IMG/VR virus record: IMGVR_UViG_2606217106_000020
Strand: one strand, 5' to 3'
Source: a virus
Taxonomy: Duplodnaviria > Heunggongvirae > Uroviricota > Caudoviricetes
Length of the DNA stretch: 41,681 nucleotides
Position numbers: made by a program. The stretch's first letter is position 1. Each line of letters starts with the position of its first letter. Shown piece after piece: positions 18,001 through 24,000 of the stretch.

Positions 18001-21000
18001 AGGTGCTTCTAATGAAAACCCGCTTCGGCGGGTTTTGTTGTATTGGAGTATCATGATATTACCTGGATTCCGTTTTTCTCTACGACTGAAAGAAGGCGAA
18101 GAGCGGCACCTCCCGGCCGTTTTACACCACGTTCCCAGTCTGATATCAGGTTTTTACTGACGTTGAGGTATCTGGCAAAAACAGGTTGAGACAGATGCTC
18201 TCGTTCGCGCAGTGCACGGATCCTTTCCGGAGACATTACCGGCGCTGGCTGGAGACAAGTTTCATCGAATTCTCGCATAGTCTGTTTCGTTACTGCGCCG
18301 ATATCATGAAGCGATTCCATCATTTCATGTACGGATGCAAGCGCATCACTGCGGTAATTTTTACTCATTGGGTACCTCCGTAAACTGACCCTGTAGAATC
18401 AGTTGTGCCAGTTGTTCATCTGTTAGATTGAGTACGTGAGGAGCCCCTTCCGAAATGCACTTTCCTCAGTAGCGGTTATATTTTCACGTTCATTTTTTGC
18501 GTATGCATATACGAAAAAGGCCCTTGTGCCGACGCGATAGAAAATGATTGTGCGATAACCGCCAGATTTGCCGCCACCGACTCGTGGCAGACGTTGCTTG
18601 ATAACGCCGTTACCCAGGTTTGCTGAGATAAGCCCGTTATCAGCCTGTTTAACAATTTCGCGCAGTGATTGGTCGGATATTTTGTTTTGCGTGCAAATCG
18701 CTCAAACCAGGCGTTTTTAAAAATGCGCATTTTTTGTTCCGTTATTAATGTATAACACATAGTGTTACATTGCGTAGGGATCTGCAATGCCATCAGTTTG
18801 ACAACGTCGCGTGTTCGGGGCTATATTCCTCACGCGCCAGCAAAACCTGGCGTCGGGATTAGCACCCCGGATATCGAAACGGTGCATAACCGCGCTGGCG
18901 GTTTTTTTATGCGCTAAGCACAGTCACATTCGCGATTTATGGCGGGCTGTGTGGGGGGGCCGAAAGGCTCGCCGGATGTTTCGACCGGTAGTGCTAACCC
19001 CGCACAGTTCGCCACCACGATGATTAGCACCTGACGGTGGCGAGGTAAAAATTATCGAAACGCGAGGTCATTATGGCTGTTCAAATTTCTGTCGAAAACC
19101 TTTCCCCTGTTACCTATAACCAGATCCCCGTAATTACTACTGAACTGTTGGCTCACCTTTACGGAACAAAAATCAAAAACATTTCTGATAACTTTCTGAA
19201 CAACACGACGCGATTCATGCCCGGAAAGCATTACTTTAAAATTGAAAAAAACGAATTACGCGAGTTTAAGAACAGACCCGAAACAATCGGGTTAGTTGGT
19301 AAAAATGCCCGCTCCCTCATCCTCTGGACAGAACGCGGCGCAGCCCGTCACGCAAAAATGCTCGAAACCGATCGGGCGTGGGAGGTATTCGAAAAACTGG
19401 AAGACTGCTATTTCAGCCAGGGAAAAACAGCACCAACCGAACAGCAGCCGCAGATTCAGCCACAATTCACAGCCGAAGAAATCATCCTCCTTTGCTACAT
19501 GCAGCTCTGGATGGAAAAAGCCCAGGACATCAGCAAACACCTGTATCCCATTATGAAAGAGCTGAACTCCTCATACACGAACAAGCTGTATGACATTGCG
19601 TTTGAGACCATCTACATGGTGACGAAGAACAGAGACGCGCTACTGAGGGAGGTAACACGTCTCGACATGTCAAGTTCCGTTATCCAGCGGGCCATGCCAA
19701 TGCTGAAAAGCCTGCGGGCAAGACAATTTGAATTCTGAAACTAAAGGAGCTTCGGCTCCTTTTTTGTTGGGAAAATCCAGTGAGAGGGAATAATGAACCA
19801 GACTATCTTCCTCCGAAGTAAGCAGCAGCAACAATTCGCCATTAACGCCATCCTTGCAACAACTCTCGATAAAGACAAACCCGTTACGATCCGCATCACC
19901 GATTACAAGCGGAATCTCGATCAAAATGCCAAATTTCACGCGATGGTCGCTGATATCTCCCGACAGGTTCAGTGGTGCGGCAGATGGCTAAAACCAGAAC
20001 AGTGGAAAGTTTTGTTAATCAGCGGTCATGCCGTGGCGACAAAACAGGAAGCTGATGTTTTGCCTGGTCTTGAAGGTGAATACGTCAATATCCGCGAAAG
20101 CAGTGCGCAGATGAGCGTGAAGCGTATGGCAAGCCTGATTGAGTACACAACTTCCTGGGCTGTGGAGCAGGGTGTCAGATTTACCGACAGGAGGTATGAA
20201 TGAGACGACAGCGACGAAGCATTACCGATATAGTCTGTGAAAACTGCAATTACCTTCCAACGAAACGTTCCAGAAATAAACCCAGGCCAATCCCAAAAGA
20301 ATCTGACGTTAAAGCCTTCAATTACACGGCTCACCTGTGGGATATCCGGTGGCTAAGACATCGTGCGAGGAAAACAAGGTGATTGACGTGATGATTTATT
20401 CGGGGCTATATTCCTCACGCGCCAGCAAAATCTGGCGTCGGGATTGGCGTCCTGGATAGAGACCGCGACAGATACACGCCGCGAGCGTGTTTTTTATTGT
20501 CGTATGCACGCGCACATCTGAATTATGGTGGGCTGTGTGGGGGCGGAGAGATCCGCGCCGGTCGGTTTCCCGGTTACGCCAACCCTGCACAGTTCACCAC
20601 CAGACGATTGGCGTCGTCGGTGGTGAGTTATTAAGAAACCACTCGAGGGCGTCATTATGACAACTCAAATCTCTGTTGAAACACTCTCCACGATTACTTA
20701 CAAGCAGATCCCCGTTATCACTACCGAACTTTTGGCGCACCTTTACGGCACAGAAGCTATTCGTATTCGCCAGAATCACCACGAAAACAAAGGTCGTTTC
20801 ATTGAGGAAAAACACTTCTTCAAACTTGAAGGTGAAACTTTACGTGAGTTCAAGCACAGAGTAGCTTTTAACTACTCTGTGAAAATTGCCCGTAACGTTC
20901 GCTCCCTCATCCTCTGGACAGAACGAGGCGCAGCCCGTCACGCCAAAATGCTAGAAACCGATCAGGCGTGGGATGTGTTCGAAAAACTGGAAGACTGCTA

Positions 21001-24000
21001 TTTCAGCCAGTGCGAGAAAAATACTGGCAAACAAGAGAAGAAGCCCAACGGGCTTTCCGCAAAAGAAACAGACAGCCTTGTATGGCTGTGGGATTATGCC
21101 AACCGCTCACAGGCATTGTTCCGTGAGTTGTATCCCGCATTAAAACTGATTCAGTCTGGCTATTCCGGCATATGCCACGACTACGGCTATGAGTTCTCGT
21201 ATATCATCGGGAGGGCGAGGGGCGTTTTAATTAATCACACGCGGGATATAGATATTTATGAGCCTGACGGGCCGACGAACCTTCTGGCATGGGAAAGGCT
21301 TAAGAACAAAGAGTTGCCGCCTTCACTGCATCGCTACTGACAATTGACAACTTAACAAACCCAGCTTCGGCTGGGTTTTTTATTGCTGAATTTTCAATAT
21401 GAGAGGACATGACAATGAATGAGCTGATAAATAGCAGCATCATCAAAATGACCAGCATTGAAATCGCTGAGTTGGTGGGGAGTCGTCCAGATAACGTAAA
21501 AATATCAATAGAGCGCCTGGCTGAATCTGGAGTTATTCAACTTCCTGCATTGCAGGTTTTCGAAAAAATCAATAACTTAGGACTGCGCCGTAGTGTCGAG
21601 GCTTACGTCTTCGAAGGCGAACAAGGTAAGCGAGACAGCATTATTGTCGTCGCCCAATTGTCGCCGGAATTCACCGCTCGTCTTGTTGACCGTTGGCGAG
21701 AGCTTGAAGGGGCAACCGCGAAAATACCACAAACCTTTTCTGAGGCATTGCGCCTTGCGGCCGACCTTGAAGACCAGAAGGCTGAACTGGAGAAACAGCT
21801 TGCTCTCGCAGCACCTAAAGTTGAGTTTGCCGATCGAGTTGGCGAGGCCAGCGGAATTTTGATTGGAAACTTTGCAAAGGTTGTTGGTATTGGTCCAAAC
21901 AAACTGTTTGCGTGGATGCGCGATCACAAAATCCTTATTGCTTCAGGTTCCCGGCGCAATGTGCCAATGCAGGAATATATGGATCGCGGCTATTTCACAG
22001 TGAAAGAAACAGCGGTCAATACAAATCACGGAATACAGATCTCGTTCACCACAAAAATCACCGGGCGTGGTCAACAGTGGCTGACCAGAAAGCCGCTCGA
22101 TAACGGAATGCTGAAAGTAACAGGGGAGGCTGCTTAATGGCTAACCTACGCAAAGAAGCGCGCGGCAGAGAATGCCAGGTACGGATTTACGGCGTATGCA
22201 ATGGCAATCCTGAAACGACAGTTCTGGCACATTACCGGATGGCTGGAATTTGCGGAACGGGAATGAAGCCTGACGACCTGATCGGTGCATGGGCTTGTAG
22301 TGACTGCCACGCGGAGATCGACCGACGCACCCGAATTCTCGACAACAACGACGCCAGACTTTACCACCTGGAAGGCGTGATCAGGACGCAGGCGATATTG
22401 CTGAAGGAGGGGAAGATTAAGTCATGAATGAATATGAGTTTGTGCTTCCCTGGCCGCCGACGGTGAATACCTACTGGCGAAGACGGGGAAGCCAGTACTA
22501 CATCAGCGATAAAGGCCAGAAATACCGAAAAGACGTACAGCAAATCATCCGGCAACTCAGATTAGACATTTTCACTAAATCACGACTTCGCATCACAATT
22601 ATTGCTGAACCACCAGATTCCCGCCGTCGCGACCTCGATAACATCCTGAAAGGTTTACTCGACTCTCTTATCCACGCCGGATTTGCGGACGACGACGAGC
22701 AATTCGATGACATTCGCGTAATTCGCGGCGTGAAAGTGCCTGGCGGTAGAGTGGGGATAAAAATCACCGAACTGGAGAACATTTGATGAATGCTAAAATT
22801 CAAACGATACCTGAATTACTGATCTGCACCAGGGGAAATCAGACAGAAGTCGCCAGAATACTGAACTGCAATCGTGCTACAGTCAGAAAATACATTGATG
22901 ATAAAGATGCGAAAAAGCACGCCGTCGTCAATGGCGTCCTTATGGTTCATCGCGGATGGGGTAAAGATACTGATGCGTGATATCCGGCAGGTTCTTGAGC
23001 GCTGGGGGGCATGGGCGGTAAATAACTATGAGGATGTTACATGGTCGCCCATTGCTGCCGGATTTAAGGGACTGATCCCCGAAAAAGTAAAATCACGTCC
23101 ACAGTGCTGTGACGATGATGCGATGGTGATATGCGGGTGCATAGCCCGCCTTTACCGGAACAATCGCGATCTGCATGACTTGCTGGTTGATTACTACGTG
23201 TTGGGGGAGACGTTCATGGCGCTGGCACGGAAACATGGGTGCTCTGACACCTGTATAGGTAAACGCCTTCACAAAGCGGAGGGGATTGTTGAAGGCATGC
23301 TGATGATGCTGGGAGTGAGGCTTGAGATGGATCGGTATGTTGAGCGTGAATTGCCGGGAGGGAGAAGCTCTGTATTTTATCAGCGAAAAAATAGTTTACG
23401 ATCGTAAAAATCTGCATATCATGATAAGAGTGGTTACATTGCCACGCAGCCGAACCCGCCGATGCGCGGGTTTTTTTGTACCCAGAATCCTGTGAGCTAT
23501 ACGGAAAGTACACAGAAAGGAAGGTACGACCGCAATTAATAACAAAATCTTAAAAATCTCATATGGCACTATTAGTTTTCTAAATATTGTATATTTTAAG
23601 TATTGCAGGATAACCCTGTAACGAAGTTTGCGTAACAGCATTTTGCTCTACGAGTTTGCCAGCCTCCCCTGGTGGCTGGCTTTTTTTGTATCCGTTCAAC
23701 GGGAATGTTACATACCTCACAATTAAGTCAGTTGAATGTTGTCTGCCCGGATGAGAATTTGTTAGAAAAAACTGCATGGTGAATCCCCCTGAGCGGAGGG
23801 GCGACTGGTGACGGTATAATCTCTGATTATCAAAACGAGAATGACGCGGGTTTAGTGGCACCGGGCTGAACTCACCGGGAGGCACCCGGCACCATGCAAT
23901 GGCACATAGCGCCACTCTCCAGCCCCTCTCCGGAGGGGCTTTCTTATGGACAAAAAAGCCCGCGCTGGGAGACGCGGGCGGCAAGGAATGAACAATGAAA

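What the first reader, a model, noticed from the sequence alone, without database searches (positions are those of the whole stretch)
19073..22137. Three antirepressor-type genes in one nin region, two of them paralogs with a conserved ORF6N N-domain and divergent C-termini
The proteins at 19073..19738 and 20657..21340 share a nearly identical N-terminal block of about 110 aa ([12 protein letters not shown] ... [34 protein letters not shown]) but have unrelated C-terminal halves, and a third Rha/AntA-type antirepressor follows at 21409..22137. Divergent effector domains on a common scaffold suggest each targets a different repressor, possibly repressors of co-resident prophages, as described for Gifsy antirepressors.
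Basis: partly seen in the sequence, partly recalled or inferred. Interest (0 to 1): 0.6.

Follow-up and report, generated by a model that had tools for sequence, protein, structure and literature searches.

The report
Two antisense-RNA-gated antirepressor cassettes in tandem
An E. coli lambdoid prophage carries two complete copies of the phage P1-type "C4 antisense RNA plus antirepressor gene" cassette, each with its own RNA address, followed by a third P1-Ant/Roi-like gene; this is an unusual arrangement of a known regulatory system, not a new one.

Summary
The three ORFs are real. The claim of "unrelated C-terminal halves" is wrong. Ant1 and Ant2 align end to end (48% identity, E 1e-63). Both are ORF6N + P22_AR_C proteins in the same PHROG, and their C-halves are diverged homologues (about 20% identity, E 2e-10). 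Ant2's C-half is 83% identical to P22 Ant. The third protein is Roi-like and 53% identical to P1 Ant1/2.

The order is a sigma-70-like promoter, a leader RNA with targets a1/b1 and a terminator (Rfam isrK/c4-a1b1), C4 antisense RNA (a', b'), targets a2/b2 beside the Shine-Dalgarno, ant, then a terminator.

The two cassettes use different a and b sequences, with matching changes in all copies. Predicted discrimination equals that between the heteroimmune phages P1 and P7. Across 33 distinct cassettes, a1:a' and a':a2 pair in 100% of cases, with two-sided changes only. Published Gifsy-1 isrK compensatory mutants map exactly onto a1:a'.

Addresses and C-domains reassort freely. No LexA box is present. 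Which repressor each protein hits remains untested. The exact tandem layout occurs in 9-10 of 5,426 complete E. coli genomes.

The parts
18798..18827 (+). Cassette 1 promoter-like site (TTGACA, 18-nt spacer, TATATT)
   Evidence: 11 of 12 consensus matches. It aligns with the mapped isrK promoter region of Gifsy-1.
18821..18910 (+). Cassette 1 leader RNA (isrK / c4-a1b1 type). It holds a1 UUAGCAC at 18859-18865 in a hairpin loop, b1 UCGAAACG at 18874-18881, and an intrinsic terminator at 18888-18903 followed by a T-run.
   Evidence: Rfam c4-a1b1 47.4 bits (gathering score 46.7) and isrK 74.3 bits (gathering score 50). Terminator. Coordinates verified.
18935..19019 (+). C4 antisense RNA 1. The b' loop GUUUCGA is at 18978-18984 and the a' strand GUGCUAA at 18991-18997.
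   Evidence: Rfam C4 72.5 bits (gathering score 45). Fold energy -48.2 kcal/mol. Stems are 99.7% paired with 14 compensatory pairs across 33 cassettes.
19020..19072 (+). ant1 leader. It holds a2 UUAGCAC at 19024-19030, b2 UCGAAACG at 19055-19062, and the Shine-Dalgarno GAGG at 19064-19067.
   Evidence: It is complementary to a' and b' of C4-1. The layout matches the annotated P1 a2/b2 sites.
19073..19738 (+). ant1: an ORF6N domain plus a diverged P22_AR_C domain (C-I type)
   Evidence: Pfam; PHROG 377.
19743..19768 (+). Intrinsic terminator closing cassette 1
   Evidence: 8-bp stem, GC-rich at the loop end, followed by a T-run.
19793..20382 (+). ninB and ninE, which separate the two cassettes
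   Evidence: Pfam NinB 1.2e-53 and NinE 1.8e-41.
20383..20412 (+). Cassette 2 promoter-like site (TTGACG, 18-nt spacer, TATATT)
   Evidence: 10 of 12 consensus matches.
20406..20497 (+). Cassette 2 leader RNA. It holds a1 UUGGCGU at 20444-20450, b1 GAGACCG at 20459-20465, and a terminator at 20474-20490 followed by a T-run.
   Evidence: Rfam c4-a1b1 50.5 bits and isrK 75.5 bits. Supporting data.
20521..20604 (+). C4 antisense RNA 2. The b' loop CGGUUUC is at 20563-20569 and the a' strand ACGCCAA at 20576-20582.
   Evidence: Rfam C4 66.7 bits. Fold energy -44.5 kcal/mol. Coordinates verified.
20605..20656 (+). ant2 leader. It holds a2 UUGGCGU at 20608-20614, b2 GAAACC at 20635-20640, and the Shine-Dalgarno GAGGG at 20645-20649.
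20657..21340 (+). ant2: an ORF6N domain plus a P22_AR_C domain (C-II type; residues 124-227 are 82.7% identical to P22 Ant)
   Evidence: It corresponds to the 'ant' gene of Stx phages.
21357..21385 (+). Intrinsic terminator closing cassette 2
   Evidence: 9-bp stem followed by TTTTTTATT.
21409..22137 (+). Roi-like protein: a weak Rha-like N-terminus plus an ANT/KilAC domain. No RNA element of its own was found.
   Evidence: Pfam ANT 5.5e-32. Annotated as roi in Stx phages. Residues 61-236 are 53% identical to P1 Ant1/Ant2. PHROG 63.

Best explanation
The region holds two complete, self-contained P1 immI-type cassettes that flank ninB-ninE, followed by a Roi/P1-Ant-like KilAC gene.

Each cassette runs in this order:
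- a constitutive-looking sigma-70 promoter;
- on read-through, an approximately 85-nt C4 antisense RNA that presents b' in a hairpin loop and a' in a single-stranded stretch;
- target copies a2 and b2, with b2 just 5' of the Shine-Dalgarno sequence;
- an ORF6N-P22_AR_C ant gene;
- a strong terminator.

Inferred mechanism. C4 pairs with a2 and b2 and blocks ribosome binding on its own ant mRNA, so Ant is transcribed but not translated in the lysogen. The short a1/b1 RNA pairs with the same a'/b' elements, and when abundant it relieves the block. Once made, Ant antagonises a CI-type repressor and promotes or accelerates induction.

The two cassettes carry different a and b addresses, each with matching changes in all three copies. 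Each C4 is therefore predicted to gate only its own ant. This is the situation that makes P1 and P7 heteroimmune, but here both modules sit in one prophage.

The two Ant proteins belong to one family end to end. Their C-halves are diverged P22_AR_C domains. The tandem layout most likely arose by recombination between lambdoid phages, which exchange these cassettes as modules.

What is shown: the anatomy, the pairing and its covariation, and the homology. What is taken from homologues: the translational block and trans-activation (P1; Gifsy-1 isrK-anrP) and the pro-induction activity (phi24B Ant, AnrP, P22 Ant, P1 Ant). What is inferred: lack of cross-talk between the two cassettes, and the identity of the repressor targets.
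For: Rfam hits above gathering score for c4-a1b1, isrK and C4 lie in the same order in front of both ant genes. Each cassette has its own promoter-like site and two terminators.

Address elements, with coordinates verified:
- Cassette 1: a = UUAGCAC / a' = GUGCUAA; b = UCGAAACG / b' = GUUUCGA.
- Cassette 2: a = UUGGCGU / a' = ACGCCAA; b = GAGACCG (b1) or GAAACC (b2) / b' = CGGUUUC.

The layout is the same as the annotated P1 order a1, b1, c4, a2, b2.

Covariation in 33 distinct cassettes:
- a1:a' and a':a2 are paired in 100% of cells. Four of 8 positions change on both sides, none changes on one side only, and a 1-nt insertion is coordinated across the copies. No shuffle out of 500 reached the observed score, and slid controls pair in 14-46% of cells.
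- The b' loop pairs over 6-11 bp with its own b1 and b2 in 32 of 33 cassettes. b2 always lies between -22 and +4 of the AUG, in at least 8 sequence types.
- The C4 and leader hairpins are 99.7% paired with 14 compensatory pairs.

Predicted duplex energies:
- Window cassettes: cognate -8.7 to -11.9 kcal/mol; cross -2.2 to -8.0 kcal/mol.
- P1 versus P7, which are heteroimmune: cognate -8.7 to -15.1; cross -4.0 to -8.5. P1 and P7 differ at only 2 nt per site.

Gifsy-1 isrK-anrP belongs to the same cassette family (nhmmer E 8e-69), and AnrP is an ORF6N protein. The published compensatory pairs G28/C162 and G31/C159 are exactly a1:a' pairs, and A107 is the AUG at the C4 5' end (PMC4825925). In that locus the operon is transcribed but not translated (280 versus 4 Miller units). 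IsrK supplied in trans raises translation more than 100-fold, and AnrP induces Gifsy-1. IsrK and STnc1160 are expressed in all conditions tested in lysogens.

Deleting phi24B ant lowers late-promoter activity after induction to about 30% of wild type.

Protein homology is documented.
Against: No expression or binding data exist for this prophage.

Cross-talk is not excluded:
- C4-2 b' against the cassette-1 b2 site is predicted at -8.0 kcal/mol, because both share a GAAAC core.
- C4-1 a' can pair with the cassette-2 a sites through three G-U pairs.

The published Gifsy-1 model differs in detail. There, a1 mutations in cis de-repress translation, and translation is said to pass through 'orf45' by coupling. 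The role of a1/b1 as a simple decoy is therefore not settled.

The orf45-type ORF is not conserved. It ranges from 8 to 45 codons, and in the window it ends 38 nt and 30 nt before the ant AUG.

The P1 features icd and a repressor operator at the promoter are absent.

Antirepressor activity of ORF6N-P22_AR_C proteins rests on one partial knock-out phenotype and on AnrP. Their repressor targets are unknown.

The 33 cassettes are related by descent, so the shuffle statistics overstate independence.
Confidence: 0.75

Rival explanations
1. The paralogs are effector variants, each aimed at a different repressor, possibly repressors of co-resident prophages (trans-acting antirepressors as in the Gifsy phages). 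The RNA elements are secondary. This reading is compatible with the best explanation and adds a claim about target specificity.
For: The C-halves are only about 20% identical. Seven C-domain clusters sit on one conserved N-domain. The C-I domain is also found fused to AntA/AntB- and Rha-type N-domains, and Stx phages such as VT2-Sakai carry both C-I and C-II proteins. P22 Ant acts on heterologous repressors (Fogg et al.). E. coli genomes carry a median of 2 and up to 11 matching places.
Against: No binding data exist. The C-II type occurs with two different CI DNA-binding domains and is absent from most phages that have the identical CI. The prophage's own CI is an S24 self-cleaving type that does not need an antirepressor. 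No LexA box is present, unlike the Gifsy antirepressors. Addresses and C-types reassort freely, so no fixed pairing of regulation and target is visible.
Confidence: 0.3
2. A recombination by-product. The tandem layout is a neutral or transient product of exchange between lambdoid phages at the conserved cassette sequences. One copy is redundant, and no special function attaches to having two.
For: The layout is rare. Only 10 of 5,426 complete E. coli genomes cover at least 80% of the region, 9 of them at 99% identity or more. It appears in 1 of 80 IMG/VR loci and in none of the loci that share this CI. Cassette parts reassort. Remnants exist elsewhere: L022 has a truncated ORF6N between two regulatory RNAs at the same site upstream of ninB, and L020 has a mismatched b2.
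Against: Both cassettes are fully intact. Each has its promoter, both terminators, all six address elements paired and a full-length ORF. The two differ in address and in C-domain rather than being simple duplicates.
Confidence: 0.25
3. RNA immunity as the main function. The selected products are the C4 RNAs acting in trans. They silence the ant genes of incoming or co-resident phages that share the same address, as in P1/P7 immI immunity. Two cassettes would then protect the resident repressor against two address classes.
For: C4 acts in trans and underlies P1/P7 heteroimmunity. The promoters look constitutive, and the Gifsy-1 equivalents are expressed in all conditions tested. There are at least 6 a-types and at least 8 b-types in free combination, which looks like diversifying address evolution. 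Many genomes carry several cassettes.
Against: This was not tested. In three genomes with two cassettes on separate contigs, two pairs differ in address and one pair is identical, so no trend is visible. The ant ORFs are intact and conserved, so the protein is also under selection.
Confidence: 0.3
4. Not antirepressors. The ORF6N proteins are DNA-binding regulators or growth-arrest effectors that act on transcription directly (for example by switching on Q-type antiterminators), rather than by binding a repressor.
For: ORF6N is a predicted DNA-binding domain related to the KilA-N/Bro-N class (Pfam description, from general knowledge). AnrP expression raises antQ transcription and arrests growth. 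Roi is annotated as a DNA-binding protein. No solved structure or biochemistry exists for this family.
Against: Ant2's C-half is 83% identical to P22 Ant, a biochemically defined antirepressor. AnrP induces the Gifsy-1 prophage, and the phi24B ant knock-out lowers derepression. Both results fit repressor antagonism.
Confidence: 0.15

Closest known systems
Phage P1/P7 immI operon (c4 antisense RNA - icd - ant1/ant2)
   Same: The order of elements is the same: a1, b1, a terminator-like hairpin, a C4 RNA of about 80 nt with b' in a loop and a' just 5' of the closing stem, a2 directly after C4, and b2 at the ribosome-binding site. Specificity is set by short address sequences with compensatory changes in all copies, as between P1 and P7. 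The third gene of the window is 53% identical to P1 Ant1/2.
   Different: There is no icd gene. C4 directly precedes an ORF6N-P22_AR_C protein rather than the KilAC Ant. No repressor operator lies at the promoter. The location is the nin region of a lambdoid prophage. Two modules with different addresses sit in one genome.
Gifsy-1 isrK - orf45 (STnc1160) - anrP locus of Salmonella (Hershko-Shalev et al. 2016, PMC4825925)
   Same: It is the same cassette family (nhmmer E 8e-69). AnrP shares the ORF6N N-domain. The published nucleotide numbering maps exactly onto a1, a' and the C4 5' end. This locus supplies the experimental evidence for a translational block, for trans-activation by the short RNA and for prophage induction by the protein.
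   Different: AnrP has a short, unrelated C-domain (cluster S3, 187 aa). orf45 overlaps the anrP start codon in Gifsy-1 but ends 30-38 nt upstream in the window. The Gifsy-1 cassette lies downstream of Q and there is only one copy. The paper compares the locus to P4 CI/seqA and does not name P1 c4.
ant-roi pair of Stx phages (phi24B, VT2-Sakai, 933W-like; Fogg et al. 2011, PMC3064807)
   Same: Cassette 2 plus the third gene match these phages at about 90-92% nucleotide identity. phi24B Ant is the closest tested relative of Ant2.
   Different: These phages have one nin-region cassette. The window adds a second cassette upstream of ninB with a different address and the C-I domain. In 933W-type phages that domain sits on an AntA/AntB-type protein elsewhere in the genome.
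Phage P22 Ant (immI of P22)
   Same: The P22_AR_C domain is shared, and Ant2 residues 124-227 are 82.7% identical to P22 Ant. In both systems ant is held in check post-transcriptionally by a small antisense RNA.
   Different: The N-domain is ORF6N, not P22_AR_N. The regulator is a C4-type RNA rather than sar together with Arc and Mnt.
LexA-controlled trans-acting antirepressors of Gifsy prophages (Lemire et al. 2011)
   Same: Both are proposed to inactivate prophage repressors, and cross-talk between prophages is possible.
   Different: No LexA box is present. The control is RNA-based, and the prophage's own CI is a self-cleaving S24 type.

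Membership tests
P1 immI-type C4 antisense system | A C4 RNA with the family's fold | tested here: met
   Rfam RF01695 scores 72.5 and 66.7 bits against a gathering score of 45. The stems are 99.7% paired with 14 compensatory pairs in 33 cassettes.
P1 immI-type C4 antisense system | a' and b' are complementary to a2 and b2 downstream, with b2 in the ribosome-binding region of the regulated gene | tested here: met
   Complementarity spans 6-8 bp at each site. b2 ends 2 nt (cassette 1) or 5 nt (cassette 2) before the Shine-Dalgarno sequence. 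a':a2 is 100% paired in 33 of 33 cassettes.
P1 immI-type C4 antisense system | A second set of target copies, a1 and b1, lies upstream of C4 | tested here: met
   Rfam RF03163 scores 47.4 and 50.5 bits against a gathering score of 46.7. a1:a' is 100% paired in 33 of 33 cassettes.
P1 immI-type C4 antisense system | An icd-type ORF lies between C4 and ant and couples ant expression to its translation | tested here: not met
   ant follows the leader directly. The only upstream ORF overlaps C4, varies from 8 to 45 codons, and ends 38 nt and 30 nt before the ant AUG in the window.
P1 immI-type C4 antisense system | The regulated gene encodes a KilAC-type Ant1/Ant2 | tested here: not met
   The regulated genes are ORF6N-P22_AR_C. 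The KilAC protein is the third gene, which lies behind a terminator.
P1 immI-type C4 antisense system | The operon promoter is controlled by the phage repressor (Oc4/Op51) | tested here: not met
   No CI-operator half-sites (GATAAAT/ATTTATC) lie near either cassette promoter. This was a motif check only.
P1 immI-type C4 antisense system | C4 is processed from the precursor (by RNase P) and represses translation in vivo | not testable with these tools
   This needs RNA mapping and reporter assays.
Gifsy-1 isrK-anrP locus | An IsrK-type short RNA ending at its own terminator, upstream of an ORF6N gene | tested here: met
   Rfam RF01394 scores 74.3 and 75.5 bits against a gathering score of 50. 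Terminators are shown. The cassette HMM hits Gifsy-1 at E 8e-69.
Gifsy-1 isrK-anrP locus | orf45 ends overlapping the start codon of the downstream gene (translational coupling) | tested here: not met
   Only the Gifsy-1 subtype (L039-L059) ends at +4. The window ORFs end at -38 and -30.
P22 Ant family | P22_AR_C domain | tested here: met
   Both C-halves score above the gathering threshold. Ant2 is 82.7% identical to P22 Ant over residues 124-227.
P22 Ant family | P22_AR_N domain | tested here: not met
   The N-domain is ORF6N (PF10543) in both proteins.
Gifsy-type LexA-controlled antirepressors | A LexA box at the antirepressor promoter | tested here: not met
   No CTGT-N8-ACAG match with up to 1 mismatch lies in 18300-22300.
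Antirepressor (functional class) | Binds and inactivates a phage repressor | not testable with these tools
   There is only homology to P22 Ant and P1 Ant, plus the phenotypes of phi24B Ant and AnrP.

The most novel reading that the evidence does not exclude
The a/b address pairs form a combinatorial RNA immunity code among lambdoid prophages. Each C4 silences every ant gene in the cell that carries its address. A prophage with two addresses that do not cross-react would therefore do two things. It would hold two independently triggerable antirepressors. It would also shield its repressor from two classes of incoming or co-resident phages. Address diversification (at least 6 a-types and at least 8 b-types, freely recombined) would then be driven by phage-phage conflict. 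IsrK-type leader RNAs would be the anti-antisense triggers.
Probability: 0.3. Interest if true: 0.65.

Novelty: new member of a known kind. Interest (0 to 1): 0.4.

Why it matters

What the follow-up adds:
- These ant genes belong to the P1 c4/immI regulatory system. The much-studied Salmonella sRNA IsrK and 'orf45'/STnc1160 are the a1/b1 leader and the C4 RNA of that system. The papers read here discuss the two as separate systems.
- The family shows a clean natural three-site covariation series. This series predicts which cassettes cross-regulate.
- This prophage offers a natural test case, with two addresses in one genome, for RNA-based heteroimmunity outside P1/P7.

This is relevant to prophage induction and cross-talk in pathogenic E. 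coli, where the same cassettes sit in Shiga-toxin phages.

Tried and rejected
- Whole-RNA duplex folding of C4 against the leaders was uninformative, because it ignores intramolecular structure. It was replaced by element-level duplexes, calibrated on P1/P7.
- A regex search for the C4 core found only 34 cassettes. It was replaced by an nhmmer profile, which found 71 hits, 67 of them near full length.
- Column-wise pair counting could not be used for the b sites, because the register shifts between types. A per-cassette longest-helix search was used instead.
- The association of Ant C-type with CI type was inconclusive. The alternative CIs share the C-terminal domain at 95% identity, and that domain could itself be the target.
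- A LexA-box scan and a CI-operator half-site scan near the cassette promoters found nothing.
- orf45-type translational coupling was rejected for the window, because the ORF is not conserved and ends well upstream of ant.
- A sequence search of the PDB with all three proteins gave no hits.
- Structure prediction was not run. Family-level homology of the C-halves was already shown, and a fold model would not settle specificity.
- A co-residence test of addresses could use only three genomes, which is too few.

Full report
**1. The observation**

The three ORFs exist as described: 19073..19738 (221 aa), 20657..21340 (227 aa) and 21409..22137 (242 aa), all on the + strand. They lie in a lambdoid nin region. 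NinB and NinE sit between the first two genes, and YbcO, RusA and Q follow the third.

The window is an E. coli prophage. The 3.5-kb stretch is 100% identical to nine complete genomes, including FORC_069, NCCP15648 and ML35. Only 10 of 5,426 genomes cover at least 80% of it, whereas parts of it occur in 2,451 genomes.

The two paralogs share the quoted motifs, but the N-terminal part is 67% identical (78/116), not nearly identical. Residues 1-32 are 81% identical, 33-79 are 36%, and 80-116 are 95%.

The claim of unrelated C-terminal halves is wrong.
- BLASTP aligns the proteins through residue about 200 (48% identity, E 1e-63).
- The C-halves alone give E 2e-10 at 23% identity.
- Both C-halves pass Pfam's gathering score for P22_AR_C.
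- Both proteins match PHROG 377 end to end.

**2. What the proteins are**

Ant1 and Ant2 are ORF6N + P22_AR_C proteins. Ant2 residues 124-227 are 82.7% identical to the C-terminus of the archetypal P22 antirepressor. Cassette 2 plus the third gene correspond to the ant-roi pair of Stx phages at about 90-92% nucleotide identity.

Ant1's C-domain (type C-I) also occurs fused to an AntA/AntB-type N-domain in 933W and VT2-Sakai (86.6% identity), and to Rha in Salmonella phages.

The third protein has an ANT/KilAC domain. Its residues 61-236 are 53% identical to P1 Ant1/Ant2.

None of the three has a relative of solved structure by sequence search.

**3.

Rfam places three elements in the same order in front of each paralog: c4-a1b1, isrK and the C4 antisense RNA, all above gathering score.

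Each unit also has:
- its own sigma-70-like promoter (18798-18827 and 20383-20412);
- an intrinsic terminator after the leader RNA;
- a strong terminator after ant (19743-19762 and 21357-21378).

So each unit is a self-contained, moron-like cassette.

The annotated P1 immI region has the same order: a1, b1, c4, a2, b2, then the ribosome-binding site.

The address elements in the window are listed below, with coordinates verified.

| Element | Cassette 1 | Cassette 2 |
|---|---|---|
| a1 | UUAGCAC, 18859-18865 | UUGGCGU, 20444-20450 |
| b1 | UCGAAACG, 18874-18881 | GAGACCG, 20459-20465 |
| b' loop | GUUUCGA, 18978-18984 | CGGUUUC, 20563-20569 |
| a' | GUGCUAA, 18991-18997 | ACGCCAA, 20576-20582 |
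| a2 | UUAGCAC, 19024-19030 | UUGGCGU, 20608-20614 |
| b2 | UCGAAACG, 19055-19062 (2 nt before the Shine-Dalgarno) | GAAACC, 20635-20640 |

**4. Is the pairing more than chance?**

Eighty IMG/VR loci encoding relatives of Ant were fetched. An nhmmer profile of the cassette found 67 near-full copies (36 distinct rows among all 71 hits). Almost all end exactly at the ant start codon.

The following was measured on an alignment of 33 distinct cassettes.

- *a sites.* a1:a' and a':a2 are paired in 100% of cells. Four of 8 positions change on both sides and none changes on one side only. One variant has a coordinated 1-nt insertion in all three copies (UUAGGAAC / GUUCCUAA). No shuffle out of 500 reached the observed score, and slid controls pair in only 14-46% of cells.
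- *b sites.* The b' loop pairs over 6-11 bp with its own b1 and b2 in 32 of 33 cassettes. There are at least 8 sequence types. b2 always starts between -22 and +4 of the AUG, so it lies upstream of the Shine-Dalgarno, on it, or on the start codon and the first codons.
- *Internal structure.* The C4 stems and the two leader hairpins are 99.7% paired with 14 compensatory pairs.

The sequences are related by descent, so the shuffle counts are not probabilities. The absence of any one-sided change at the a sites, together with the slid controls, is nevertheless strong evidence.

**5. An experimental anchor**

The Gifsy-1 isrK-orf45-anrP locus belongs to the same cassette family (E 8e-69), and AnrP is an ORF6N protein.

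I numbered the Gifsy-1 transcript from the A of ACGCCAGC. With that numbering, every nucleotide mutated by Hershko-Shalev et al. falls on the expected base.
- G28 and G31 lie in a1.
- C159 and C162 lie in a'.
- A107 is the AUG at the 5' end of C4.

Their compensatory pairs G28A/C162U and G31A/C159U are therefore a1:a' pairs of the model derived here from covariation.

In that locus the operon is transcribed but not translated (280 versus 4 units). The short RNA supplied in trans raises translation more than 100-fold. AnrP induces the prophage. IsrK and STnc1160 are expressed in all conditions tested in lysogens.

That paper compares the locus to P4 CI/seqA and does not name P1 c4. Later reviews list IsrK and c4 as separate systems.

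**6. Do the two cassettes cross-talk?**

The a sites differ at 3 of 7 positions. The b sites share a GAAAC core but differ in the flanks. Predicted duplex energies are compared below (window values; P1/P7 values).

| Pairing | Cognate (kcal/mol) | Cross (kcal/mol) |
|---|---|---|
| Window cassette 1 vs cassette 2 | -8.7 to -11.9 | -2.2 to -6.5, with one value of -8.0 (C4-2 b' on the cassette-1 b2) |
| P1 vs P7 | -8.7 to -15.1 | -4.0 to -8.5 |

P1 and P7 are heteroimmune through c4, yet they differ at only 2 nt in a and 2 nt in b, with compensation in all copies.

The window's two cassettes are thus at least as different as an experimentally heteroimmune pair. Lack of cross-talk is inferred, not shown.

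**7. Modularity**

On the conserved N-domain, the 68 related Ant proteins carry 7 C-terminal clusters. These are C-II (P22-like, 28 proteins), C-I (19 proteins), and five short types without a Pfam match.

Address types and C-types combine freely. The cassette-1 address occurs with C-II in 12 cases and with C-I in 5 cases.

Loci without a C4 cassette have sRNA-Xcc1 directly upstream of ant instead. One locus, L022, runs Xcc1, a truncated ORF6N, Xcc1, then a full C-I Ant, just upstream of ninB. That is the same site as cassette 1. The tandem layout in the window is therefore best seen as a product of cassette exchange.

**8.

The prophage's CI is an S24 self-cleaving repressor.

I examined 29 IMG/VR loci with the identical CI and at least 8 kb of sequence on the nin side.
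- 6 carry one cassette, always C-II, followed by roi.
- 10 carry roi only.
- 13 carry neither.
- None carries two cassettes or a C-I Ant in the nin region.

C-II also occurs with a CI that has a different DNA-binding domain.

The cassette is therefore accessory and not matched one-to-one to the immunity type. Those alternative CIs share the C-terminal domain, which could itself be the target, so this test does not decide specificity.

No LexA box lies in 18300-22300, and no CI-operator half-sites lie near the cassette promoters.

The phi24B ant knock-out lowers late-promoter activity after induction to about 30% of wild type. This fits a role in accelerating derepression.

**9. Verdict**

The anatomy is that of two P1 immI-type, C4-gated antirepressor cassettes with different addresses, plus a Roi/P1-Ant-like gene. 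This is a known kind of system in a rare arrangement.

The proteins' repressor targets, and whether having two addresses has a selected function (independent triggers, or trans-immunity against two classes of phage), remain open. Reporter and binding assays would test both directly.

Noticed in passing
L014, L022-L026, L078 (about 40-130 nt upstream of ant at 3001); L163, L171, L176 (about 4880-4965): Where no C4 cassette is present, an sRNA-Xcc1 (RF02221) element of the same size sits directly upstream of the ORF6N ant gene. Two different RNA families therefore occupy the same regulatory slot.
   Followed up: partly
L022 2302-3663: The order here is Xcc1, a truncated ORF6N ORF (2424..2735, ending at ...MLETDQA), a second Xcc1, then a full Ant with the C-I domain, then NinB. 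This is the same insertion site as window cassette 1. It looks like a scar of cassette replacement by recombination in the conserved N-domain block.
   Followed up: partly
L020 2735-3028: This is a natural recombinant cassette. Its b' loop (GGUUGAU) matches its b1 but only 5 bp of its b2 (GAAACC). It is the single exception among 33 cassettes and may be a partly derepressed ant.
   Followed up: no
window 19009-19043 (and 20594-20626): The 3' strand of the basal C4 stem (UCGCCACC) can instead pair with GGUGGCGA downstream, which places a2 in a hairpin loop. This helix is 100% paired in 33 of 33 cassettes with one compensatory position. It competes with the C4 stem and may mark a precursor or processing switch.
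   Followed up: partly
window 18939-19034 and 20525-20626: An AUG at the conserved 5' end of C4 opens short ORFs of 31 and 33 codons. These correspond to Gifsy-1 'orf45'. Their length (8-45 codons), frame and peptide are not conserved across cassettes, which argues that the conserved element is the RNA.
   Followed up: yes
window 16783-18793: A cluster of toxin-antitoxin-type modules lies just upstream of cassette 1. It comprises hok/sok (Rfam sok 16783-16957), a Fic/Doc toxin (17506-18000), an HTH antitoxin (18051-18368, - strand) and a RelE-like ORF (18476-18793, - strand).
   Followed up: no
window 23746-23951: An STnc100 sRNA match (165 bits) lies downstream of the Q antiterminator gene. 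It probably corresponds to the short PR' leader transcript region.
   Followed up: no
window 9098-11008 (- strand): A eukaryotic-type Ser/Thr protein kinase (9098..10144) and a DUF3024 protein (10667..11008) lie next to the S24-type cI (11069..11773), as in 933W-like phages.
   Followed up: no
window 24173-26083: A 636-aa SASA-family carbohydrate esterase gene sits downstream of Q, where Stx phages carry their toxin genes.
   Followed up: no
phage records 933W (AF125520 60469-60759) and VT2-Sakai (NC_000902 59780-60070): The C-I domain of Ant1 is 86.6% identical to the C-terminus of an AntA/AntB-type protein at the far end of 933W-like Stx phages. Many Stx phages therefore also carry both P22_AR_C subtypes, but on different N-domains and at different loci.
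   Followed up: no
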